From a virus: DNA of 37,960 nt. A program made the translations under genes and the position numbers. Below, in pieces: positions 1 through 37,960 of this stretch (position 1 is its first letter; each line of letters opens with the position of its first letter). Where the stretch lies: positions 1 through 37,960 of the IMG/VR virus record IMGVR_UViG_3300046836_000218. The stretch is one strand, 5' to 3'. The notes under the pieces are model-generated. The model was not told where the DNA came from and searched no databases. It saw only the letters and a program-made list of their open reading frames with translations.

Positions 1-127
1 GTAAGCAGCTGATTATGGATGGCAAGCCGCGGCTGTTCTCGGTGGTCCGTCCGCAGAAGGCAGCGCAGCAACTTATCAATTACTCGAAGTCGCGCATTGC
101 TGAGACGCTTTCGACTGCTCCTATCTC
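1..127. repeat. Terminal direct repeat, identical to 37834..37960 (probable assembly overlap of a circular contig)
   Basis: Read by eye: gtaagcagctgattatggatggcaagccgc...ctcctatctc occurs at both ends. Confidence 0.95.
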
Positions 128-4457: not shown

Positions 4458-5180
4458 ATGACAGCCTATGACCTGATCAACAGTGCGCTGCGACTCGATG
4501 GCGTCCTGGCAGGCGAAGAAGTTGCGTCTGCGAATGACGCCAGCACTGGCCTGATGGTGCTGAATGACATGATCGACGCCTGGAATGCCGAGCGGCTGGC
4601 GATCTACACCACACGGATCGATGATTTCCCGTTTGTGGGTGGGCAGCAGGTCTACACCATAGGAACTGGCGGTGATTTCGATATCCCGCGTCCTGCGCGC
4701 ATCGATTCGATGAGTGCGATCCTGCTGAATACACCGTCGAACCCTGTCGAAGTGCCGATTTCGATGTATTCGATTGACGACTGGCAGACGCAGGTCCCGG
4801 TAAAGGTAGTCAACGGCTCATTCCCCCAGATTTGCTATGACGATGGCGCGTTTCCGCTGCGATCGCTCAATTTCTGGCCTATTCCGCAGGGTCAGCCGTG
4901 CGCCGCGAGGATATATAGCTGGCAGGGGCTGGGCGCTCAGACGCTTACATCGCAGATTGCCTTCCCGCCGGGCTATTCAGAGGCATTGCGCTACAACCTT
5001 GCGGTGCGGCTGGGTGCAGAGTTTGCTGCACCGGCATCTGCAGTCGTTATAGGGCTGGCAATTCAGGGGCTGGCAAGGATCAAGTCGATGAATGCGCCCG
5101 ATCTTGGGCTGCGGTCCGACCTTGTGCCGAATCCGGCTGGTTGGAACTACCGCGCAGACCTATTCGGGATGGGCTTCTAA
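4458..5180 (+). CDS. Head-to-tail adaptor / tail tubular protein A-like (T7 gp11-like)
   Basis: The N-terminus AYDLINSALRLDGVLAGEEVASANDASTGLMVLNDMIDAWNAERL matches the pattern of the T7 gp11 N-terminus (SAVNDILASIGEPPVS...ARRILNKINRQIQSRGW). Sits directly upstream of the gp10-like gene. Confidence 0.5.
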   Translation: MTAYDLINSALRLDGVLAGEEVASANDASTGLMVLNDMIDAWNAERLAIYTTRIDDFPFVGGQQVYTIGTGGDFDIPRPARIDSMSAILLNTPSNPVEVPISMYSIDDWQTQVPVKVVNGSFPQICYDDGAFPLRSLNFWPIPQGQPCAARIYSWQGLGAQTLTSQIAFPPGYSEALRYNLAVRLGAEFAAPASAVVIGLAIQGLARIKSMNAPDLGLRSDLVPNPAGWNYRADLFGMGF

Positions 5181-6617
5181 GTGAAGATACCGGCATTTGT
5201 CGGCGATTCTTACACAGCCAGATCGAATGTCGTCTCTGACTCGGAATGTATAAACTTCTTCGCAGGGACGATTGAGACGGCGGGAGCGCAGGCGCAGCGT
5301 GTTTACTTTGGCACGCCAGGCATTGGCGTCTTCACGAGTCTTCCTGATTCCCCGGTGCGTGGACAGTACTGGACGGGTGACAGGCTGTTCGTCGTGGCAG
5401 GTACTCTGCTGATCGAGGTTTACAGTGACGGCCATCAGGATGTTCGCGGCGATGTTGGGAATGATGGACAGGCAGTCTCTATCGCTGCTACGTCTGTTCA
5501 GTTACTGATTGTCTCAGCGGGGCGGGCATATTGCTACGAGTTGGAAGACAACACGATGGTTGATGTCACCGATCAGCTGGCGGGAACGCCTATGCAATGC
5601 GTCTACTCTGACAGTTACTTCATCGTCTGCTTTGTCGACAGCAACAAGTTCCAGATTTCTGACATCCTCGATGGCTCAACGTGGCCCGGTATCCAGGTTG
5701 ATGAAGTATCCGTCTTCCCTGAGAACATTGTCGGGCTGGTCGTCAGCCATCGTGAACTCTGGGTCTTTGGCTCGCAGCATATTCAGCCCTACCAGAACGC
5801 CGGTACGGATGAAATCTTCGATGTTATCCCCGGCGCATTGATTGACAGCGGGCTGATCGCCACGTTTGGCAGGAACCTTGTAGACAATACGATCTTCTGG
5901 ATCAGCGAGGACCAACGCGGCGCCCGGCAGGCATGGAGGGCGAGCGGGTATACGCCGCAGCGTATCTCAACTCATGCCGTAGAAACATCACTCTCCACTT
6001 ACTCTCCACAGCAAATGGAGAGTGTGGTGAGCTATTCCTACCAGGACGGCGGCCACCTGTTCTGGGTGCTTTATATCCCTGGCGCTGACTGCACCTGGGT
6101 GTATGACGTAGCTGAGAACCTATGGCACAAGCGTGCAGAGTGGCACCAGGACACTGCAACATGGACGCCGCACCGCAGCTGGAACCATACCTATGCGTTC
6201 GGGCTGCATCTTGTAGGCGATTGGGAGACGGGCAACCTGTACCAGATGAGCCTTGATTTCCTGGATGATAGCGGGCTGGCAATTCGCAGGCTGCGCAGGG
6301 CTCCATTGCTGGTTGATGAGATGCGATGGATTTACCATTCGGCGCTGACGATGGACTTTGCCACTGGGCTAGGGCCGCAGCCACCGCTTGAAGATGGAAG
6401 CGGCAACCCACGGCCGCCGCAGGCAATGCTGCGCTGGAGCAATGATCGTGGCTTTACCTGGTCGGCTGAGTATCTGGTGGGCTGTGGGTTCACGGGACAG
6501 TACAACACTCGGGCGATATGGCATCGGTTGGGGAGATCGCGGTATCGCGTGTATGAGATCAGCGTAACCGATCCCATTCCGTGGGTGCTTGTGAATGCTT
6601 ACCTTGAGGCGGCATAA
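5181..6617 (+). CDS. Tail hub / packaged-DNA stabilization protein (P22 gp10-like)
   Basis: 478 aa (P22 gp10 is about 472 aa). The C-terminus YNTRAIWHRLGRSRYRVYEISVTDPIPWVLVNAYLEA parallels P22 gp10 YDKRVLWKRVGRIRRLIGFKLRVITKSPVTLSGCQIRLE. GTG start abuts the previous stop. Confidence 0.6.
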   Translation: MKIPAFVGDSYTARSNVVSDSECINFFAGTIETAGAQAQRVYFGTPGIGVFTSLPDSPVRGQYWTGDRLFVVAGTLLIEVYSDGHQDVRGDVGNDGQAVSIAATSVQLLIVSAGRAYCYELEDNTMVDVTDQLAGTPMQCVYSDSYFIVCFVDSNKFQISDILDGSTWPGIQVDEVSVFPENIVGLVVSHRELWVFGSQHIQPYQNAGTDEIFDVIPGALIDSGLIATFGRNLVDNTIFWISEDQRGARQAWRASGYTPQRISTHAVETSLSTYSPQQMESVVSYSYQDGGHLFWVLYIPGADCTWVYDVAENLWHKRAEWHQDTATWTPHRSWNHTYAFGLHLVGDWETGNLYQMSLDFLDDSGLAIRRLRRAPLLVDEMRWIYHSALTMDFATGLGPQPPLEDGSGNPRPPQAMLRWSNDRGFTWSAEYLVGCGFTGQYNTRAIWHRLGRSRYRVYEISVTDPIPWVLVNAYLEAA

Positions 6618-25791: not shown

Positions 25792-25852
25792 TCCGTAGTC
25801 AGGAATACTACGTACTAGAAACAACTATGCGCCACGACATGCGTAGTGTCAA
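25792..25852 (-). promoter_or_regulatory. P_L-like promoter with O_L-like operator sites
   Basis: Minus strand: TTGACA (25847..25852), 17-nt spacer, CATAGT (25824..25829). Inverted repeat CGTAGT-N7-ACTACG at 25794..25812, and another CGTAGT at 25842..25847. The 20-mer TCCGTAGTCAGGAATACTAC recurs at 27207. Confidence 0.55.
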
Positions 25853-25907
25853 GTAGTATGAACGCCGTTGTCGTATTTATTTTTAGGGTACGTCGTGACC
25901 TTATTTT

Positions 25908-26132
25908 CTATTTCTTGTCACAACAGGATGGAGGTCTTCTGAGGAGCCGTTCGCGTTCTTCAGGGTGCTTGGCCAGCTGATAAGCAAGGCCAGGGCCGCA
26001 GTGACGATCGCGGATGCAGTAGAGGAGCCCGGCATTGACGGTGAAGCTGCCTGCCTGGTTCATAACGTTGGTGTAATCAGACGGTTGAAGAATAGGGAAC
26101 ATGCCGGATTGTGCCGGTGGGATTTCAAACAT
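25908..26132 (-). CDS. Hypothetical 74-aa protein divergent from the RHH gene
   Basis: Internal ATG at 26132 with GGAGA upstream. The longer 108-codon form has no RBS. Confidence 0.4.
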   Translation of the reverse strand: MFEIPPAQSGMFPILQPSDYTNVMNQAGSFTVNAGLLYCIRDRHCGPGLAYQLAKHPEERERLLRRPPSCCDKK

Positions 26133-26263
26133 GGATGCGTATCTCCAGGTGTTTCTCGATACTGGGTGCCCGCACAGCTTTATGGGGAAATGTTGCAGAA
26201 CGGCAATGTCGCGTAGCCGACATAGTAGTCCCACCGGGACTGCATGTATAGCCTGTTATACGC

Positions 26264-26285
26264 TTAACCTGTGCCTAACCTGTGC
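26264..26285. promoter_or_regulatory. Tandem 11-bp direct repeat (candidate RHH operator)
   Basis: TTAACCTGTGC followed by CTAACCTGTGC, lying between the divergent ORFs 25908..26132 and 26326..26517. Confidence 0.45.
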
Positions 26286-26325
26286 ATAAATTAGGTGTTT
26301 ATGTGACAAGTGCACTAGAACAAAG

Positions 26326-26517
26326 ATGATCATGATGTCTACGAATAGAATCGTAAGAGTGCCGGTTCTGATTAATTTGCAGGAACTGGATATCCTCGAC
26401 CAGCTTGCCAATGAAAAGGGTTTATCTCGTTCAGCATGTTTGCGGCAGGCATATCTGGAGCAGGCAAAAGAAATAGGGATCTCGTACCGAGATCCCCGAG
26501 TTACCAAGAAGAAATAG
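26326..26517 (+). CDS. Ribbon-helix-helix (Arc/Mnt/CopG-like) DNA-binding protein
   Basis: RVPVLINLQELDILDQLANEKGLSRSACLRQAYLE fits the RHH beta-strand plus two-helix pattern. Confidence 0.65.
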   Translation: MIMMSTNRIVRVPVLINLQELDILDQLANEKGLSRSACLRQAYLEQAKEIGISYRDPRVTKKK

Positions 26518-26521
26518 CAGT

Positions 26522-27205
26522 TTATTCGCGGCTTCTTGCAATCTCCAGGACCACCGTCCCGACAATGCTTATCCCGTCATTGAGTGGATTCTCTGTGCGG
26601 AAAGCGTCATCTTCAGGGAGCAGTGCGAAACCTTCAGTGCGGTCAGCATATTTGCGCACCACCACTTCGGATTTCTGCGTCTTGGTCCTGTAAATCGCTG
26701 CAATAACCAGGTTTTTAGGCTTAGCAATGAGCCCCGGTTCGACAACAACCTTGTCGCCGACCTTTAGTCGTGGACGCATGGCATCGTCGTTTATGACGAA
26801 GACGAAGGCATCCTCTGCGAAGCTCCCATCTGTCAGGTATATCTCGCTCTGACCGCCTAATTCATGAGCTGGATGATCGATCGTGAGAACCCCGGCGGCA
26901 TCGCGCCTGATCATATCGGCAGTATAGACATTCAGGGGAACCACGCGAACGTTGAATGCGGCTCTCGGATCGTATAAATGTGACACCTCCACATTCAGGG
27001 CGTCTGCGATTCTCTTCAGGCTGCTGTGAGAAAATCCCTTCCCCGTATCCTCCACTCGCTTGATGTTCGCCTTATCCCAGCGCGGCACGCATCGCTCCCC
27101 CAGTTCCTCCAGGGACCAACACTTCTCAATCCGTAGTCTCTTTACATTCCTGCCCACAATATTTTCAAGCGATTTGTTGCCGAAATCCATGCATTGATTA
27201 TGCAT
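26522..27205 (-). CDS. CI-like repressor: XRE HTH plus S24 (LexA-like) domain with substituted catalytic Ser
   Basis: N-terminal HTH (VKRLRIEKCWSLEELGERC). The C-terminus AFVFVINDDAMRPRLKVGDKVVVEP...EVVVRKY...IVGTVV aligns to the S24 GDSMxP...GD...K pattern, but with Ala in the Ser position. Confidence 0.8.
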   Translation of the reverse strand: MHNQCMDFGNKSLENIVGRNVKRLRIEKCWSLEELGERCVPRWDKANIKRVEDTGKGFSHSSLKRIADALNVEVSHLYDPRAAFNVRVVPLNVYTADMIRRDAAGVLTIDHPAHELGGQSEIYLTDGSFAEDAFVFVINDDAMRPRLKVGDKVVVEPGLIAKPKNLVIAAIYRTKTQKSEVVVRKYADRTEGFALLPEDDAFRTENPLNDGISIVGTVVLEIARSRE

Positions 27206-27206
27206 T

Positions 27207-27275
27207 TCCGTAGTCAGGAATGCTACTAGTAAATTTTAGTCTTGTAGTTTCAACGTAGTTGTAGGCTATACTACG
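27207..27275. promoter_or_regulatory. O_R-like operator region with P_R candidate
   Basis: TCCGTAGTCAGGAATGCTAC at 27207..27226 matches the O_L 20-mer at 19 of 20 positions. CGTAGT-N10-ACTACG at 27254..27275. Plus strand: TTGTAG (27242) and TATACT (27267) upstream of cro. Confidence 0.5.
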
Positions 27276-27289
27276 GCGGCGGAGGCTAC

Positions 27290-27562
27290 ATGGTCGAAAT
27301 TCTGATTGAAACGCGAGCCAAATACGAGCTCTCAAGATACGCAGTGGCTAAGGCTGCCGGGATGGATCGCAACAACTACAAAAGGCTTGAACTGGGGGAA
27401 TACAAACCGTCTGAAGGTGTCGCCCTTAATATAGTCGACGCGTTTACGCAACTGGTTGGAACCAAGGTCATTACCTACAAGAAAGACAACAGTGGTTTCC
27501 GTCAGCACCAGAAGCGCGGCAAGGCTGCCAAGACAGCAACCAGGAGAGCCAAAGCCGCATAA
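27290..27562 (+). CDS. cro: Cro-like HTH regulator
   Basis: Divergent from the repressor gene. GGAGG RBS. YELSRYAVAKAAGMDRNNYKRLELGEY is an HTH. Basic tail. Confidence 0.7.
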   Translation: MVEILIETRAKYELSRYAVAKAAGMDRNNYKRLELGEYKPSEGVALNIVDAFTQLVGTKVITYKKDNSGFRQHQKRGKAAKTATRRAKAA

Positions 27563-27653
27563 GGTTACTGGCCATCAGTTAGAGGAAGTGGCGGTGAGTT
27601 TTACCCCTCGTTTTGAAGCAACAAGCCCTATTGCAAAGTGACGACAAAACCCG

Positions 27654-28358
27654 ATGTCTAACCGAAAAATAAATATGCCAACTACCCAAAATTCAGATAA
27701 TTATCTCGCTCTGCCCGCCAGCGACATGAATCAGATCCCAAAGTACCGTTCAGGCGTATATGCGCTCTGGAGCGGCCAGGAATGCATTTACGTCGGCAGT
27801 TCAACGAATCTCTACCTCAGAATTGGCTGGCACAACCACACAGGCAAATTCGATCGAGCGACGTGGGCGGAGTTTCCCGAGGATCTTCTTGAGTCTAAGG
27901 AACGTGAGTGGTTCGACCGTCTCAGCCCTGTACTGAACCAAAACAAGATTAAGAGATCTCAGCGTCTTCCCCGGGCATGGCGATGGCAGCCTCGCGTTCA
28001 GAAGTGGGCGCGGATCTCCTTTGGGGCTGTCGATGGGTGGCGAAGGATTGGGTATTGTGTTGTGGTTGAGCGTCCTAAGCCTGGATATCACCATCCCAAC
28101 GCTCTGCCCCAAAAAGAGGAGATGAAAGCAGTAAATCTTCTCAAGACAACCAGAGAGAAATATAAGTTCTCCTTTGGCGTAATCGCAGCGGTAGCCGGGA
28201 TAGATCGCAGCAACTACCGAAAGATTGAGCTAGGGATCTACTCGACATCCGTAGAGACGGCCACAAAGATAGCCAACGCCTTCACTAAGTTGACTGGAAC
28301 GAAGGTCATCACGAGGGAAGACGTTATTTTCTTGAAAACCAACGGGCAGGTGAACTAA
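27654..28358 (+). CDS. GIY-YIG nuclease domain fused to a Cro-paralogous HTH domain
   Basis: N-terminus: SGVYALWSGQECIYVGSSTNLYLRI...EREWF...LNQ (GIY, YIG, R, E, N). The C-terminus KYKFSFGVIAAVAGIDRSNYRKIELGIYSTS...ANAFTKLTGTKVIT aligns with Cro KYELSRYAVAKAAGMDRNNYKRLELGEYKPS...VDAFTQLVGTKVIT. Confidence 0.7.
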   Translation: MSNRKINMPTTQNSDNYLALPASDMNQIPKYRSGVYALWSGQECIYVGSSTNLYLRIGWHNHTGKFDRATWAEFPEDLLESKEREWFDRLSPVLNQNKIKRSQRLPRAWRWQPRVQKWARISFGAVDGWRRIGYCVVVERPKPGYHHPNALPQKEEMKAVNLLKTTREKYKFSFGVIAAVAGIDRSNYRKIELGIYSTSVETATKIANAFTKLTGTKVITREDVIFLKTNGQVN

Positions 28359-28362
28359 GCCC

Positions 28363-28719
28363 ATGCCCAGAACCAAGCCAGCCGCCGTCCAGCCGCAGTT
28401 CAGCTTGTTTGTTGCCGAACATTTCCGCGATCACGGCATAGCTCGTGCAGCGAGTACGCGTGAGGCATTGCTTGACGAGGCTCGAGCGATAGCCGTGCGG
28501 ATCTGCAAGACCCGAGGGGAAGTGACTTACGACGACGTGTACCTGGAGATGCTTGAGCGTGGGCTCAAGCCGGAGAACATCGGCAATGCTGCAGGGTCGT
28601 TGTTCAGGGGCTCGCAGTTCAGGTTTACGGGCCGTTGGAGCAAGTCGACGCGGGTGTCGAATCACGCTCGGGTGAACAGGGTTTGGCGGTTGGACGAGCC
28701 GAAGTCAGGGGTGCAGTGA
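28363..28719 (+). CDS. Hypothetical protein
   Basis: 118-codon ORF. Its stop overlaps the next start (TGATG). Confidence 0.55.
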   Translation: MPRTKPAAVQPQFSLFVAEHFRDHGIARAASTREALLDEARAIAVRICKTRGEVTYDDVYLEMLERGLKPENIGNAAGSLFRGSQFRFTGRWSKSTRVSNHARVNRVWRLDEPKSGVQ

Positions 28720-29276
28720 TGCCTGCAGCGACCTGGCGTAAGTGGTATCCGCACGACATAGAGAAGTGGAATAGCTCTCCTGCTATCCAACTTTTGTCGG
28801 ATGCGGCGTATCGGGCGTATCACAGCCTTATTATGTGCCAGTGGGAGTCTGCGGAAGGGTATCTACCTGAAAATGAGAGACTTCTCCAGACTCTGGCCAG
28901 AGTCCGTACAGAGTCTGAGTGGAGTCTGGTCAGAGTCGAGATTTTACCGTTGTTTTTACATGAAAATGGGCATGTTTTTAGTGCCAAACAACGTACAGAA
29001 TGGCTACGTGCGAAGGCAGTAAGTAATAGAAAAGGCAGGACTTTTCCAGACTCTGACCAGACTCCGTCCAGAGTCCGTCCAGTATCTGGACACAATAACA
29101 ATAACAAGGACATGTTAAATACCCCCCCTACCCCCCGGGGGGCAAGACGTTCTGCGAAGGCTGTAATCGGTATCGCCAAAACCCCTGAAAACCATCCGTT
29201 CGAACCAGACGCAGACGGCTACTGCAAACGCTGCGCGTTCGCCAAGGATCACCAATCGCACCAGGAGGCCGCATGA
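28719..29276 (+). CDS. DUF1376 (YdaU-like) replication-associated protein
   Basis: WRKWYPHDIEKWNSSPAIQLLSDAAYRAYHSLIMCQWES fits the DUF1376 N-terminal pattern. Start taken at ATG 28719. Confidence 0.6.
   Translation: MPAATWRKWYPHDIEKWNSSPAIQLLSDAAYRAYHSLIMCQWESAEGYLPENERLLQTLARVRTESEWSLVRVEILPLFLHENGHVFSAKQRTEWLRAKAVSNRKGRTFPDSDQTPSRVRPVSGHNNNNKDMLNTPPTPRGARRSAKAVIGIAKTPENHPFEPDADGYCKRCAFAKDHQSHQEAA
28886..29089. repeat. Two clusters of phased 11-bp iterons (candidate origin of replication)
   Basis: 28886..28940: CCAGACTCTGG CCAGAGTCCGT ACAGAGTCTGA GTGGAGTCTGG TCAGAGTCGAG. 29046..29089: CCAGACTCTGA CCAGACTCCGT CCAGAGTCCGT CCAGTATCTGG. An AT-rich stretch lies between the clusters and another after them. 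Confidence 0.6.
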
Positions 29277-29566
29277 CTACCTACCCCTGCAAGCATTGCC
29301 AGAAGCCCATCACTCGCCTGAAGTCCTGCCTTGACTGTCGCCTGATCGAGTCTCAGGCCGTGAAGGCGAATGCCCAGACGTTGCGTGAAGAGTGGGCTGA
29401 GAGTTTTGCGGATCGTCAGTCGCGGAAGGAAGCGCGCCGCGAGTACCGCAGGAAGATCGGCATCACTGCGAAGGCTACCACGCGAATGACTCCGCGCATG
29501 CTGAATCAGCTTTTGAAGTGCAAGGACGATGCCGCAAGGCGAATTCTTCTGGGGAAATCGGCATGA
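29273..29566 (+). CDS. Hypothetical Zn-ribbon / basic protein
   Basis: CKHCQKPITRLKSCLDC. ATGA-coupled at both ends. Confidence 0.55.
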   Translation: MTTYPCKHCQKPITRLKSCLDCRLIESQAVKANAQTLREEWAESFADRQSRKEARREYRRKIGITAKATTRMTPRMLNQLLKCKDDAARRILLGKSA

Positions 29567-31050
29567 CCTATGGATCGGTTTGCAGCGGAATCGAGGCAGC
29601 ATCTGCGGCATGGGAGCCGATGGGCTGGAATGCTTCGTTCTTTGCCGAGATTGAGAAGTTCCCGTCGTCAGTTCTCAATCACCATTACCCGGAGGTTCCT
29701 AATGTCGGAGACTTTAGTCGAATTGCAACTGTTCTCAATCATGCCGATGAACAGCGGCAAGGACTACAAGGCGCGGCGGGTGGATGTGGCGCAGCCTCTG
29801 ATGACATCTCAGGTCGGCGGGAATCAGGGCGGGGATTATGTGGTGATAGTGCCGCCGAGTGGGGTGCAAATCTCCAGAGAGGAGCAATCGACCTTCTGGT
29901 CGGAGGAACACCTTGCCAGGATTTCTCAGTCGCCGGACTGCGAGCGGGAATGGACGGAGCGCGTGGTCAGCTCACCATCGAGTTTGCTAACCTTGCTGGC
30001 AGACTACGGCCCCGATGGCTGGTATGGGAGAACGTCCCCGGCGTCCTGTCGATTGATGGAGGAAGGGCGTTTGGAACCTTTCTCGGACTCCTGGGGCAAC
30101 TCGGGTATGGGGTCGCCTACCGAGTTCTTAACGCTCAACACTTCGGAGTTCCACAGCGCCGCCGTCGCGTCTTCGTTGTCGGACATCTTGGAGACTGGCG
30201 ACGTGCCGCAGCGGTACTTTTTGAGCGCAACAGCATGTCGGGGCATCCTGCGCCGCGCAGAGAAACGGGGCAAGCGGCTACCGGAGGCTTTACGTTTGGC
30301 ATTGACGAAGAGTGCAACGTCTCAGATGACCAGTTCGGCCCACTGCTTCGAGGTGGACAAGGCGGAACCCGTCAAGCTGTCGCCAGTACCGGAGATGTTA
30401 GCTGCGTCCATGTAGCACCTACGCTGCGAGCTGGAGGTAATCGGACGGGCGGAGATCGGCCACCGGGAACGGATGTGGACACCTGCGAGACGCTGATTGC
30501 CCACTCCCTCCGCGGCGAGGGCTTCGATGCCAGCGAGGACGGTACGGGGAGGGGAACGCCGCTGGTTACCGCTTTCTCCGCTAAGGATTACGGAGCCGAT
30601 GCAACGGAAGGGCTAACTCCCACACTTCGCGCTGGTGGATTCGATAAGAGTCACGCTAACAGCGGCAACTGGATGGCGGTGGCTATCCAGAACGCAACAC
30701 GCGGCAAGGATCAGAATGGCCTTGGCGTAAGCGATGACGGCAGCATGTACACGCTCGATCAGGGAAGCCAACATGCGGTGGCGTTCGGTGCGCAGATGAG
30801 CACTCCGCATTGGCAGCATGACCTGAGCGACACACTACAAGCCAAGAACCCCAAGGCTGTGCAGTTCGGAATGGCAGTGCGGCGTCTGACTCCCCGCGAG
30901 TGCGAACGCCTACAGGGATTCACCGACGACTACACAAAGATCAGCGACAAGACAGCAGATGGGCCCAGATACAAGGCACTCGGTAACTCCTTTGCCGTTC
31001 CGGTTGTTCGCTGGATAGGCGAGCGAATCCAGATGGTGGAGAACTTATGA
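29563..31050 (+). CDS. DNA (cytosine-5) methyltransferase (orphan)
   Basis: Motifs seen: GSVCSGIEAAS (I), GGTPCQDFSVAG (IV), LVWENVPGV (VI), QRRRRVFVVG (VIII), LTPRECERLQGF (IX), GNSFAVPVVRWI (X). No restriction endonuclease gene was recognised nearby. Confidence 0.9.
   Translation: MTYGSVCSGIEAASAAWEPMGWNASFFAEIEKFPSSVLNHHYPEVPNVGDFSRIATVLNHADEQRQGLQGAAGGCGAASDDISGRRESGRGLCGDSAAEWGANLQRGAIDLLVGGTPCQDFSVAGLRAGMDGARGQLTIEFANLAGRLRPRWLVWENVPGVLSIDGGRAFGTFLGLLGQLGYGVAYRVLNAQHFGVPQRRRRVFVVGHLGDWRRAAAVLFERNSMSGHPAPRRETGQAATGGFTFGIDEECNVSDDQFGPLLRGGQGGTRQAVASTGDVSCVHVAPTLRAGGNRTGGDRPPGTDVDTCETLIAHSLRGEGFDASEDGTGRGTPLVTAFSAKDYGADATEGLTPTLRAGGFDKSHANSGNWMAVAIQNATRGKDQNGLGVSDDGSMYTLDQGSQHAVAFGAQMSTPHWQHDLSDTLQAKNPKAVQFGMAVRRLTPRECERLQGFTDDYTKISDKTADGPRYKALGNSFAVPVVRWIGERIQMVENL
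29702..30415 (+). CDS. Candidate overprinted ORF in an alternative frame of the methyltransferase gene
   Basis: The frame is open over 29570..30415 (281 codons). An internal ATG at 29702 has GGAGG at 29691..29695 (6-nt spacer). The translation looks protein-like. Unverified. Confidence 0.3.
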   Translation: MSETLVELQLFSIMPMNSGKDYKARRVDVAQPLMTSQVGGNQGGDYVVIVPPSGVQISREEQSTFWSEEHLARISQSPDCEREWTERVVSSPSSLLTLLADYGPDGWYGRTSPASCRLMEEGRLEPFSDSWGNSGMGSPTEFLTLNTSEFHSAAVASSLSDILETGDVPQRYFLSATACRGILRRAEKRGKRLPEALRLALTKSATSQMTSSAHCFEVDKAEPVKLSPVPEMLAASM

Positions 31051-37000: not shown

Positions 37001-37960
37001 TAACGACGAGACGAAACAGCCAGAAACCGACACTGCCAAGCGCGAAGAGTTCCTTGCGCTGGCGCGCCGTCGCTTCTCCGCTGCGGCAGAGGATGAAAAG
37101 GACCTGCGTGCCAAGTTCTCGTCCGATCTGAAGTTCGCTTCGCCTGATGGTGACGATCAGTGGGACCCGCAAGTCAAGATGCAGCGCGAACAGGCAGGGC
37201 GCCCTGCTATGTCGTTCCCGCGCTGCCATACGTTCGTGCAGCAGGTATCGAATGAAGCGCGAACACGGAAGCCTACCATCAAGTTCTCGCCGCGGCTGGA
37301 TCAGGATAACGATACGGCTGAGTGCCTTGAAGGGCTGGCACGCTATATCCAGTATGACTCCCAGGCACAGGTAGCTTATGAGACGGCTGTGGAGTACAGC
37401 GCAGGCGCATCGTTCGGTTATTACCGCTTTCTGACGGAATACTGCGATGACGACAGCGACGATCTGGAATTGAAGGTCGTTCCTGTTCTCGATCCGCTGC
37501 AGATTTATGGGGTTCTGGTGCCTGCGTGTTTCAATCGCAAGCCGCGATATGCCTTCGTCATCGAGGACATACCGAAGGATGAATATAAGGCAATGTATCC
37601 GGACTCTGAGCTGGCATCGCTGCCATGGGCTGAAGCTGAGAAGCGGTCTGAAGGCTGGGTTGGTTCGGATGCGGTAAGGATTGCGGAGTACTGGTATTGC
37701 GAAGATGAGCCAGTCAAGGGCAAGCGCAGGCCGAAGTGCAAGGTAAAGTTCTGCAAGACGAATGGCTTTGAGATCCTTCCCGACACTGAGACGGAGTGGC
37801 CAGGCTCAACCATCCCGATTATCCCTGTTCTGGGTAAGCAGCTGATTATGGATGGCAAGCCGCGGCTGTTCTCGGTGGTCCGTCCGCAGAAGGCAGCGCA
37901 GCAACTTATCAATTACTCGAAGTCGCGCATTGCTGAGACGCTTTCGACTGCTCCTATCTC
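36993..37960 (+). CDS. Portal protein, N-terminal part (runs off the window end and continues at 1..1274)
   Basis: MPDNDETKQ...DLKFASPDGDDQWDPQVKMQREQAGRPAMSFPRCHTFVQQVSNEAR is typical of P22-type portals. No stop occurs before the window end. Confidence 0.85.
   Translation, partial: MPDNDETKQPETDTAKREEFLALARRRFSAAAEDEKDLRAKFSSDLKFASPDGDDQWDPQVKMQREQAGRPAMSFPRCHTFVQQVSNEARTRKPTIKFSPRLDQDNDTAECLEGLARYIQYDSQAQVAYETAVEYSAGASFGYYRFLTEYCDDDSDDLELKVVPVLDPLQIYGVLVPACFNRKPRYAFVIEDIPKDEYKAMYPDSELASLPWAEAEKRSEGWVGSDAVRIAEYWYCEDEPVKGKRRPKCKVKFCKTNGFEILPDTETEWPGSTIPIIPVLGKQLIMDGKPRLFSVVRPQKAAQQLINYSKSRIAETLSTAPI
37834..37960. repeat. Terminal direct repeat, identical to 1..127
   Basis: See the feature at 1..127. 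Confidence 0.95.

What the first reader, a model, noticed from the sequence alone, without database searches (positions are those of the whole stretch)
27654..28358. GIY-YIG nuclease fused to a paralogue of the phage's own Cro DNA-binding domain
Residues ~30-100 carry the full GIY-YIG signature: GVY..(9)..YVG, then Arg, Glu and Asn. The last ~75 residues are clearly related to the Cro-like protein encoded 90 bp upstream. By eye they share roughly 40-45% identity, including AG(M/I)DR(N/S)NY(K/R)(R/K)(L/I)ELG and AFT(Q/K)L(V/T)GTKVIT. A nuclease guided by an immunity-type HTH could cut operator-like sequences of competing related phages, which would be a form of inter-phage warfare or homing into immunity regions. 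Alternatively it could act as a Cro/CII-like regulator that has recruited a nuclease domain. An internal ATG (MKAVNLL) could also yield a free second Cro-like protein.
Basis: partly seen in the sequence, partly recalled or inferred. Interest (0 to 1): 0.65.

Follow-up and report, generated by a model that had tools for sequence, protein, structure and literature searches.

The report
Phage nuclease fused to a Cro domain
A soil temperate phage encodes, right after its cro gene, one protein that joins an intact-looking GIY-YIG DNA-cutting domain to a Cro-type DNA-binding domain; the domain sits where relatives keep their cro gene, so the enzyme may be steered to the control sites of related phages, though no activity has been tested.

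Summary
ORF 27654..28358 (+, 234 aa) carries a GIY-YIG domain with all catalytic residues conserved (Y36, Y46, R56, H60, E83, N95). It also has a small beta-beta-alpha-beta middle domain, a flexible linker and a C-terminal XRE/Cro-type HTH. That HTH is 51% identical over 61 aa to the phage's own Cro (E 1e-17).

New context:
- The five closest GIY-YIG relatives all sit in the order cI(-)|cro|GIY-YIG, and all lack the HTH.
- In relatives without the nuclease, the 118-aa downstream gene follows cro directly. The fused HTH therefore occupies the place of a cro gene and looks like a third Cro allele of this phage group, diverged long ago from the window's Cro.
- A contig 94% identical across cI and cro lacks the whole cassette, with the breakpoint at 27532.
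- GIY-YIG plus C-terminal HTH fusions recur in other phages (P0012, P0137, RcTitan gp36).

Best reading: a modular, operator-tethered endonuclease like I-TevI or ICP1 Odn, made by mosaic recombination in the immunity region. No activity has been tested.

The fusion junction is seen in one sample only, at about 10x depth in two assemblies. It lies at a CCCCAAAAA run where one base fewer would give two separate genes.

It is a new variant of a known kind, of moderate interest.

The parts
25794..25860 (.). Left operator cluster (O_L). Three 19-bp sites of the type CGTAGT-N7-ACTACG at 25794 (perfect), 25811 and 25842, next to a leftward promoter-like site at 25852-25824.
   Evidence: The 19-mer CCGTAGTCAGGAATRCTAC occurs only here and at 27208; 0 are expected by chance.
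26522..27205 (-). CI-like repressor: N-terminal HTH plus an S24 self-cleaving peptidase domain.
   Evidence: Pfam Peptidase_S24 1e-8 and a weak HTH_31 match; PHROG 4 transcriptional repressor.
27206..27289 (.). Divergent cI-cro control region (O_R), with operator sites at 27209-27227 and 27254-27275.
27290..27562 (+). cro (90 aa, XRE HTH), the first gene of the rightward early operon.
   Evidence: HTH_3 25.2 bits; position opposite cI. The same protein with more than 90% identity is found in contig L025.
27532..27533 (.). Mosaic breakpoint inside the cro tail. To its left, L025 is 94% identical to the window. To its right, homology is lost until the 118-aa gene, which is 72% identical.
   Evidence: A second contig in run X1 breaks at the same place.
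27563..27653 (+). 91-nt spacer between cro and the nuclease gene. No promoter-like site, terminator-like site or stable RNA fold was detected.
27654..28358 (+). Whole chimeric ORF, 234 aa including the stop codon. An alternative start is Met8 at 27675.
27711..27953 (+). GIY-YIG catalytic domain (residues about 20-100), with Y36, Y46, R56, H60, E83 and N95.
27966..28073 (+). Trp-rich middle domain (residues 105-140, beta-beta-alpha-beta). It is shared with the closest HTH-less relatives P0002, P0003, P0004 and P0008. No Pfam family matches. It is a presumed DNA-contact or spacing module.
   Evidence: pLDDT about 90; no family match.
28074..28121 (+). Low-confidence linker (residues 141-156). 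It contains the fusion junction with the run CCCCAAAAA at 28107-28115. In the +1 frame a TGA at 28123-28125 overlaps the ATG at 28122.
28122..28355 (+). Cro-family XRE HTH domain (residues 157-234), beginning at an internal ATG. It occupies the position that cro holds in relatives without the nuclease.
28363..28719 (+). 118-aa gene of unknown function. In relatives L004, L025, L026 and L027 it follows cro directly.

Best explanation
What it is (anatomy, well supported). The window is a complete, circular temperate phage genome of about 37.8 kb with a lambda-like immunity region. ORF 27654..28358 is one reading frame built from four parts:
- a GIY-YIG nuclease domain with a complete catalytic set;
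- a small Trp-rich domain;
- a flexible linker;
- a Cro-family HTH.

The nuclease part belongs to a family of phage GIY-YIG proteins that sit immediately after cro, in the position lambda gives to cII. The HTH part is the former cro gene of another immunity type. In relatives without the nuclease, cro lies directly upstream of the 118-aa gene, which is exactly where this HTH now lies.

How it arose (inferred). Mosaic recombination placed a cI-cro-GIY-YIG module in front of that resident cro. The two reading frames became one either at that event or later, through one extra base in the CCCCAAAAA run.

How it most likely works (inferred, not shown). The protein is made early in lytic growth from the rightward promoter together with Cro. 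Like I-TevI ('beads on a string') and ICP1 Odn, it is probably a tethered endonuclease. The Cro-type HTH would dock on Cro-type operator palindromes of the CGTAGT-N7-ACTACG family, in related phages or prophages met in the same cell. The GIY-YIG domain, held on the linker, would cut nearby. The result would be exclusion of the rival, or repair from the nuclease-carrying genome, which would spread the cassette and the linked immunity module. The phage's own DNA would be spared through differences in operator sequence or in the spacing and sequence of the cleavage site.
For: Domains and catalytic residues.

Specific Cro relationship.

Synteny. All five of the closest GIY-YIG relatives (P0002, P0003, P0004, P0008, P0013) lie in the order cI(-)|cro|GIY-YIG, mostly with overlapping stop and start codons, and one of them follows a P22_Cro-type cro.

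The HTH occupies the cro position. L004 and L026 have cI|cro(84 aa)|118-aa homologue, collinear with window 28131-28617. That Cro is 50% identical to the fused HTH over 70 aa, including the tail REDV(I/V)FL(K/N)T.

Presence/absence polymorphism. L025 is 94.2% identical to window 25965-27532 and then goes straight from cro to the 117-aa gene. A contig in the same run X1 breaks at the same base.

Modularity. The 150 family members carry HTH_17 (10), HTH_3 (7), several ribbon-helix-helix families (1-3 members each), AlpA (2) or Arm-DNA-binding (2) modules.

Independent fusions. P0012 has a C-terminal HTH that is 52% identical (E 2e-18) to the Cro of a different GIY-YIG-carrying phage, and does not align with the sequenced C-terminal part of the cro-like gene upstream of it. 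P0137 also follows an HTH gene. RcTitan gp36 has the same architecture.

Selection. Variants of the nuclease part in five other soil and root runs show 6 synonymous and 3 non-synonymous differences, by my reading of the codons. The two HTH copies keep 51% amino-acid identity although third codon positions are near saturation.

Operators. They are defined and confined to O_L and O_R.

Precedents. Odn is a GIY-YIG-superfamily nuclease whose DNA-binding domain is 42% identical to a rival element's origin-binding protein, and it cuts that origin (PMC8263062). That paper also cites work (Liu et al. 2006) on how I-TevI distinguishes repression from cleavage by spacing.
Against: No biochemical or genetic data exist.
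- The exact fusion is seen in a single sample. No other protein among 5.8 billion 90%-identity clusters or 1.84 billion representatives has this combination with this HTH.
- The hypothetical rival phage carrying a stand-alone copy of this Cro allele was not found.
- The closest relatives work without any HTH, so the HTH may add nothing.
- If the HTH recognises the phage's own operators, self-cutting must somehow be avoided. Its recognition helix RSNYRK is close to Cro's RNNYKR.
- The junction lies at a homopolymer run where a one-base change would separate the two genes.
- The Pfam GIY-YIG score is marginally below threshold.
Confidence: 0.4

Rival explanations
1. Recombination scar without new function. 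The fusion is a by-product of mosaic exchange or of a one-base insertion. The nuclease acts as its HTH-less relatives do, through its own middle domain, and the old Cro domain is a tolerated or decaying passenger.
For: - The closest relatives (P0002, P0003, P0004, P0008, P0013) lack any HTH.
- The fusion is unique to one contig.
- The junction sits at CCCCAAAAA, with an out-of-frame TGA overlapping the old start codon, the ATGA arrangement these phages use between coupled genes.
- Mosaic breakpoints lie all around.
Against: - The HTH reading frame is intact over 78 codons and folds with pLDDT about 90.
- Analogous GIY-YIG plus HTH fusions arose several times, so the architecture is viable and apparently useful.
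- The HTH-to-118-aa-gene junction is also present at about 98-99% identity in another sample, X3.
Confidence: 0.3
2. Mainly a regulator. The Cro-type HTH makes the protein a second Cro-like or CII-position repressor or autoregulator that binds operators without cutting, as I-TevI does at its own promoter. The nuclease activity would be secondary or directed elsewhere.
For: - The gene lies in the cII position of the early right operon.
- The recognition helix is very similar to Cro's.
- Operators occur only at O_L and O_R in this genome.
- Foldseek hits include R-M controller proteins and SinR.
- The I-TevI precedent is cited in PMC8263062.
Against: - Near-identical phages do without the gene (L025), so it is not a core switch component.
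- The catalytic residues are fully conserved, which argues for selection on cutting.
- No operator-like site lies in front of the gene.
Confidence: 0.15
3. Assembly artefact. The true sequence has one base fewer in CCCC or AAAAA (28107-28115). That would give a 162-aa GIY-YIG protein ending ...NALPKKRR* and a separate 78-aa Cro-like gene starting at 28122 with an ATGA overlap.
For: - The frame analysis shows this reading is possible, and ATGA overlaps are common in these phages.
- Only one sample covers the junction.
Against: - Two assemblers (JGI and Logan) give the same sequence at about 10x word depth.
- The many 151-nt contigs in the related runs suggest 151-nt short reads, which in general rarely miscount runs of 4-5 bases. 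The libraries are not on record.
Confidence: 0.07
4. Restriction-like pair. The GIY-YIG enzyme, fused to a controller-type HTH, works with the phage C5-cytosine methylase (29518..31050) as a phage-borne restriction-modification module.
For: - GIY-YIG type II enzymes exist (Eco29kI is cited in PMC10688885).
- The methylase is in the same operon, and a homologue lies downstream of the GIY-YIG gene in L005.
- There are weak PADLOC matches to control protein and REase_II, E 0.02-0.03.
Against: - Three genes separate the two.
- No gene within 5 kb downstream of the nuclease gene in L007 has a methylase Pfam hit.
- The PADLOC hits are not significant.
- The family's swapping of DNA-binding modules is typical of homing-type enzymes.
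Confidence: 0.05

Closest known systems
I-TevI and the Seg-type GIY-YIG homing endonucleases of T-even phages
   Same: An N-terminal GIY-YIG catalytic domain, a flexible linker and a C-terminal DNA-binding region ending in a helix-turn-helix. The overall size is similar. The gene is free-standing, and it is present or absent between close relatives. I-TevI can bind without cutting and so act as a repressor.
   Different: No NUMOD, IENR or zinc-finger modules were detected. The HTH here is a five-helix XRE/Cro domain and not the small I-TevI HTH. The host is a temperate phage and the gene lies in the immunity region. The target site is unknown.
ICP1 Odn (Gp88), the origin-directed chimeric nuclease (PMC8263062)
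   Same: [quoted passage not shown] It was created by domain shuffling between competing elements.
   Different: Odn has a T5orf172-type domain at the C-terminus and a RepA_N-like domain at the N-terminus, in a lytic phage, and it targets a satellite's origin. Here the order is reversed, the DNA-binding domain is a Cro allele, and activity is untested.
Rhodobacter phage RcTitan gp36 'endonuclease', and metagenomic P0012 and P0137
   Same: The same GIY-YIG subfamily (40% identity over residues 24-95) with a C-terminal XRE HTH. RcTitan gp36 is the best structural match in BFVD (E 8e-8). Each lies at the start of, or just after the first HTH gene of, an early operon.
   Different: They lack the Trp-rich middle domain. 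Their HTHs are unrelated or only distantly related to the window's. None has been characterised experimentally, as far as the records show.
Lambda-type Cro and CI-family XRE regulators
   Same: The C-terminal domain passes the Pfam HTH_3 threshold, superposes on SinR, C.AhdI and DdrO (TM about 0.8), and is about 50% identical to two Cro proteins of this phage group.
   Different: It is not a free protein of 70-90 aa at the promoter-proximal position. It lacks the basic C-terminal tail of the group's Cro proteins and is tethered to a nuclease.

Membership tests
GIY-YIG nuclease superfamily (Pfam PF01541 / clan) | GIY...YIG hairpin motif with 9-11 residues between the two Tyr | tested here: met
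   GVY(34-36) and YVG(46-48), with 9 residues between them. Y36, Y46 and G48 are invariant.
GIY-YIG nuclease superfamily (Pfam PF01541 / clan) | Catalytic Arg, His/Tyr in helix 1, Glu and Asn | tested here: met
   R56, H60, E83 and N95 are invariant in 11 sequences and at least 90% conserved in 150.
GIY-YIG nuclease superfamily (Pfam PF01541 / clan) | Score above the curated Pfam gathering threshold | tested here: inconclusive
   22.1 bits against 22.6, matching only model positions 2-38. 117 of 150 homologues match at E <= 0.01.
GIY-YIG nuclease superfamily (Pfam PF01541 / clan) | Three-stranded sheet flanked by helices (the fold) | tested here: met
   The AF2 model has pLDDT above 90 in residues 30-100. 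Foldseek matches the UvrC N-terminal domain 1yd6 with TM 0.70 and rmsd 2.4 A.
GIY-YIG nuclease superfamily (Pfam PF01541 / clan) | Metal-dependent DNA cleavage | not testable with these tools
   Needs a purified protein assay with an E83A control.
Free-standing GIY-YIG homing endonucleases (I-TevI/Seg type) | Catalytic domain, linker and separable DNA-binding module(s) | tested here: met
   The model shows three folded units joined by low-confidence linkers. Family members swap DNA-binding modules.
Free-standing GIY-YIG homing endonucleases (I-TevI/Seg type) | NUMOD/IENR1-type DNA-binding modules | tested here: not met
   No such Pfam or NCBIfam match. TIGR01453 scores only 13.9 bits against a cut-off of 56.
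Free-standing GIY-YIG homing endonucleases (I-TevI/Seg type) | Gene present or absent at the same locus in closely related genomes | tested here: met
   L025 is 94% identical up to 27532 and lacks the gene. A variant contig in run X1 breaks at the same base.
Free-standing GIY-YIG homing endonucleases (I-TevI/Seg type) | Cuts the endonuclease-lacking allele near the insertion site and is copied in by repair | not testable with these tools
   Needs cleavage mapping and co-infection or plasmid homing assays.
XRE / Cro-CI HTH family (PF01381) | Score above gathering threshold and a five-helix fold | tested here: met
   HTH_3 scores 25.8 bits against 23. Foldseek matches SinR, C.AhdI and DdrO with TM 0.8-0.85.
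XRE / Cro-CI HTH family (PF01381) | Sequence-specific binding to palindromic operators | not testable with these tools
   Candidate operators are defined. Binding needs EMSA or footprinting.
Odn-like chimeric anti-rival nucleases | DNA-binding domain homologous to a specific DNA-binding protein of a competing element | tested here: inconclusive
   The HTH is about 50% identical to Cro proteins of two immunity types of the same phage group and sits in the cro position. The element carrying this exact allele as its cro was not found.
Odn-like chimeric anti-rival nucleases | Cleaves the rival's cognate site and restores or enhances fitness in competition | not testable with these tools
   Experimental.

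The most novel reading that the evidence does not exclude
An immunity-module gene drive. The nuclease would use the Cro domain of a rival immunity type to cut that rival's operator region during co-infection or prophage induction. The retained rival cro coding sequence and the 118-aa gene would serve as the right-hand homology arm, and the conserved cI C-terminal half as the left arm. Repair would then copy cI-cro-nuclease into the rival and convert its immunity type. The family-wide placement of GIY-YIG genes right after cro would reflect selfish spread of this kind through temperate-phage immunity regions.
Probability: 0.12. Interest if true: 0.85.

Novelty: new variant of a known kind. Interest (0 to 1): 0.55.

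Why it matters
Modular nucleases that borrow the DNA-binding domain of a rival's regulator are so far documented by very few cases; ICP1 Odn is the main one. A second, independent example in a temperate phage's immunity region would suggest three things:
- domain capture is a general route to sequence-specific weapons between phages;
- there may be a mechanism for the well-known mosaic swapping of immunity regions;
- small natural scaffolds of GIY-YIG, linker and XRE HTH could be useful for programmable nicking or cutting.

Separately, the conserved order cI|cro|GIY-YIG in several soil phage lineages does not seem to have been described, judging from three literature searches, and it can be tested.

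Tried and rejected
- Megablast of 26400-29400 against 50,697 phage records found no match.
- The word-index protein search found only the protein itself.
- A scan of IMG/VR with the protein found nothing. A scan with a subfamily alignment gave two distant GIY-YIG loci that were not informative about cro linkage.
- Two JGI metagenome scans gave nothing or spurious short matches, with no GIY-YIG ORF in the four of the nine loci inspected.
- Programmed frameshifting at CCCCAAAAAG was rejected. Homology to relatives runs in the same frame as the HTH up to residue about 150, so no shift is needed, and the other frame upstream has no homologue.
- A terminator, promoter or structured RNA in the 91-nt spacer was not found (z = 0.56). 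Rfam gave only a sub-threshold MIR166 chance hit.
- A CTAC-N9-GTAG palindrome inside the HTH coding region (28238) is consistent with chance; about 0.6 are expected in 38 kb.
- PADLOC gave no significant defence-system match.
- The middle domain (residues 105-140) has no Pfam or PDB sequence match. A resemblance to AP2/Arm-type beta-sheet DNA binders is only my impression and was not tested.
- The last context look-up (P0161) was meant to test methylase linkage. It did not address that question; it showed a homologue of the 118-aa protein next to a large terminase.
Full report
**1.

The window carries an ORF at 27654..28358 (+) of 234 aa. The public gene call starts at Met8 (P0001, 227 aa).

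The ORF lies 91 nt downstream of a 90-aa XRE-type gene (27290..27562). That gene is transcribed divergently from a 227-aa repressor gene with an HTH and an S24 peptidase domain (26522..27205, -). These are therefore a cro and a cI in the classical sense.

BLASTP of Cro against the ORF gives 31/61 identities (51%), no gaps, E 1e-17.

In an exhaustive phmmer search of 1.84 billion representative proteins, only two of the 150 listed hits match the HTH part alone. They are an 84-aa stand-alone Cro of a relative (P0007, E 6e-11) and the window's own Cro (P0015, E 3e-8). The resemblance is therefore specific and not generic HTH similarity.

**2. The nuclease domain looks catalytically competent.**

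- Pfam GIY-YIG scores 22.1 bits, a hair under the 22.6 cut-off, and covers only the first half of the model.
- In an alignment with ten relatives, the columns Y36, Y46, G48, R56, H60, E83, P92 and N95 are invariant. They stay at least 90% conserved across 150 homologues.
- 117 of those 150 homologues match PF01541 on their own.
- From published work on I-TevI and UvrC, recalled and not tested here, these positions correspond to the two Tyr of the GIY and YIG motifs, the catalytic Arg, the helix-1 His, the metal-binding Glu and the structural Asn.
- An AlphaFold2 model built on a shallow alignment has mean pLDDT 81.7. It shows four units: a GIY-YIG domain (residues 20-100, pLDDT above 90), a small beta-beta-alpha-beta domain (105-140, about 90), a low-confidence linker (141-156) and a helical HTH domain (157-215, about 90).
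- Foldseek against the PDB finds the UvrC GIY-YIG domain (TM 0.70 on the target, rmsd 2.4 A). It also finds XRE regulators such as SinR, C.AhdI and DdrO (TM 0.8-0.85).
- Against viral models the best hit is the 'endonuclease' gp36 of Rhodobacter phage RcTitan (E 8e-8).

**3. The genome.**

The contig has a 127-nt terminal overlap, so it is a circular assembly of about 37.8 kb.

It encodes an integrase, RecT and YqaJ recombination genes, cI, cro, the chimeric ORF, a 118-aa protein, a DUF1376 replication-type protein, a C5-cytosine methylase, RusA and SSB. This is a lambda-like temperate phage. It comes from a soil metagenome.

The operators are clear:
- The 19-mer CCGTAGTCAGGAAT(G/A)CTAC occurs exactly twice, at 27208 in the cI-cro region and at 25793 beside a leftward promoter-like site. 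None is expected by chance.
- All matches to CGTAGT-N7-ACTACG with at most two mismatches fall in these two clusters: three at O_L and two at O_R (a third, overlapping O_R match has three mismatches).

**4. The nuclease belongs to a family locked in position after cro.**

The closest relatives cover residues about 19-150 and have no HTH:
- P0002: 54% identity, 158 aa
- P0003: 157 aa
- P0004: 162 aa
- P0008: 142 aa
- P0013: 139 aa

All five lie in the order cI(HTH+S24, -) | cro(72-81 aa, +) | GIY-YIG(+). The cro stop and the nuclease start usually overlap. One of the five follows a cro of the unrelated P22_Cro type.

The wider family is modular. Members carry HTH_17, HTH_3, ribbon-helix-helix, AlpA or Arm-type DNA-binding modules.

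C-terminal XRE HTH fusions recur:
- P0012 lies directly after a cro-like gene. Its HTH is 52% identical (E 2e-18) to the Cro of a different GIY-YIG-bearing phage. It gives no alignment with the part of the upstream cro-like gene that the contig holds.
- P0137 lies directly after an HTH gene.
- P0082 and P0054 show the same architecture.
- RcTitan gp36 is the first gene of an early operon.

So a GIY-YIG nuclease plus an XRE HTH is not a new architecture. Its link with Cro-type domains next to cro is a repeated theme.

**5. Where the HTH came from.**

In relatives without the nuclease, the homologue of the 118-aa gene follows cro directly (L004, L025, L026, L027).

L004 and L026 are collinear with window 28131-28617. 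Their 84-aa Cro aligns with the fused HTH (50% over 70 aa, E 1e-23), including the tail REDV(I/V)FL(K/N)T that the window's own Cro lacks. Their next gene aligns with the 118-aa gene.

The fused HTH therefore occupies the position of a cro gene. It is about equally distant from the window's Cro (31/61 in the core) and from the L004-type Cro (27/61).

The two copies within the window are only 62% identical in DNA, and 51% at third codon positions. This looks like an old divergence and not a recent duplication. I read the domain as a third Cro allele of this phage group.

The surroundings are a textbook immunity mosaic. The cI S24 half is 81% identical to L026, while the cI HTH half and cro are swapped.

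**6. The cassette is a presence/absence polymorphism.**

- L025, from another JGI sample, is 94.2% identical to window 25965-27532, which covers the RHH gene, cI, O_R and most of cro. It then switches within the cro tail to the L026-type ending and runs straight into the 117-aa gene, which is 72% identical to the window's.
- In the run that holds the window (X1), a second contig follows cro to the same base, 27532. It then continues with 30 nt identical to the L004 cro end.
- Pieces of the cro-spacer-nuclease arrangement at 95-99% identity occur in at least five other soil, rhizosphere and root runs. Their differences in the nuclease part are 6 synonymous and 3 non-synonymous, by my reading of the codons.

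**7. The junction, and a caveat.**

Homology to the HTH-less relatives runs to about residue 150 (...CVVVERPKPGYHHP). The sequence then reads NALPQKEE-MKAVNLL. The Met (28122) aligns with the start codons of the Cro proteins.

The DNA is ctg CCCC AAAAA g agg ag ATG A. With one base fewer in either run, the nuclease would end ...NALPKKRR, with a TGA overlapping the ATG. That ATGA arrangement is what these phages use between coupled genes.

The fusion may therefore have arisen from two adjacent genes by a single-base insertion, or directly at the recombination event.

An assembly error is unlikely but not excluded. Two assemblers agree at about 10x word depth. The many 151-nt contigs in the related runs suggest short reads, though the libraries are not on record. 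No other run spans 28101-28199.

Efficient internal initiation at Met157 is doubtful, because the AGGAG abuts the ATG. This rests on general knowledge of SD spacing.

**8. Mechanism.**

Shown:
- domain composition and conserved catalytic residues;
- the specific Cro relationship;
- synteny, polymorphism and recurrence of the architecture;
- the operators.

Inferred:
- The protein is made early from P_R with Cro. No promoter-like or terminator-like site was found in the spacer.
- It acts as a tethered endonuclease in the manner of I-TevI and ICP1 Odn. In Odn, a GIY-YIG-superfamily nuclease carries a domain 42% identical to a satellite's origin-binding protein and cuts that origin (PMC8263062).
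- The Cro-type HTH would dock on operator-type palindromes of related phages.
- The result would be exclusion of the rival or conversion to the nuclease-carrying allele.

I put this at about 0.4.

Rivals:
- a functionless recombination scar (0.3);
- a mainly regulatory role, like I-TevI autorepression (0.15);
- an assembly artefact (0.07);
- a restriction-like partnership with the phage methylase (0.05).

**9. Comparison and novelty.**

- Membership in the GIY-YIG superfamily and in the XRE HTH family is supported by motif, fold and, for the HTH, by score.
- Membership in the classical I-TevI/Seg homing group is not claimed, because no NUMOD or IENR modules were found. It behaves like that group in architecture and in being present or absent between close relatives.
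- The likeness to Odn is one of concept and not of homology in arrangement.
- Three searches of the held literature found no description of a GIY-YIG gene family placed after cro, nor of a nuclease fused to a Cro allele. Absence from that library is not proof.

I rate it a new variant of a known kind. Interest is moderate (0.55). The idea is attractive and testable, but the fusion rests on one genome and no activity is known.

Noticed in passing
window 26326-26517 (+): A 63-aa ribbon-helix-helix (CopG-like) ORF lies convergent with the 3' end of cI (Pfam RHH_1 E 7e-4, just under threshold). A 63-aa gene sits at the same place in L025 (362..553).
   Followed up: partly
window 25794-25860 and 27209-27275: Lambda-like multi-site operators, O_L and O_R, built from 19-bp CGTAGT-N7-ACTACG palindromes. 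By eye, the heteroimmune relative L026 has sites with similar half-sites in its cI-cro region.
   Followed up: partly
window 28363-28719 (+); L028 6001-6378: The 118-aa protein has no family match. It follows cro directly in four relatives. In a 64-kb contig, however, a 63%-identical homologue lies immediately upstream of a Terminase_3 large subunit and a portal gene. This hints at a small-terminase-like or other DNA-binding role.
   Followed up: no
window 29518-31050 (+); L005 about 4698-5471: A C5-cytosine DNA methylase of 510 aa matches Pfam in two separated stretches, which suggests a long insert. A homologue also lies a few genes downstream of the GIY-YIG gene in L005.
   Followed up: partly
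window, early operons (for example 27551-27562, 29262-29276); relatives L003-L011: Many early proteins end in (E/K)AA followed by a stop that overlaps the next start (ATGA or TGATG). The Shine-Dalgarno GGAGG is embedded in the GAG GCx GCx codons, so translational coupling shapes the C-termini.
   Followed up: no
window 1-127 and 37834-37960: A 127-nt identical terminal overlap shows the contig is a circular assembly and presumably a complete phage genome.
   Followed up: yes
window 26494-27079 vs L026 8-597: The S24 (C-terminal) half of cI is 81% identical in DNA to a relative whose cI HTH half and cro are a different allele. This is a classical immunity-specificity swap, with the crossover inside cI.
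   Followed up: partly
L013 2986-3399; P0006, P0009, P0062: Several members of the same GIY-YIG family end in a ribbon-helix-helix-like segment instead of an HTH. Others (P0005, P0010) end in Cys-rich, zinc-ribbon-like tails. Ralstonia phage YL4 has an N-terminal integrase-arm-like segment. These assignments are by eye, with support from the Pfam counts.
   Followed up: partly
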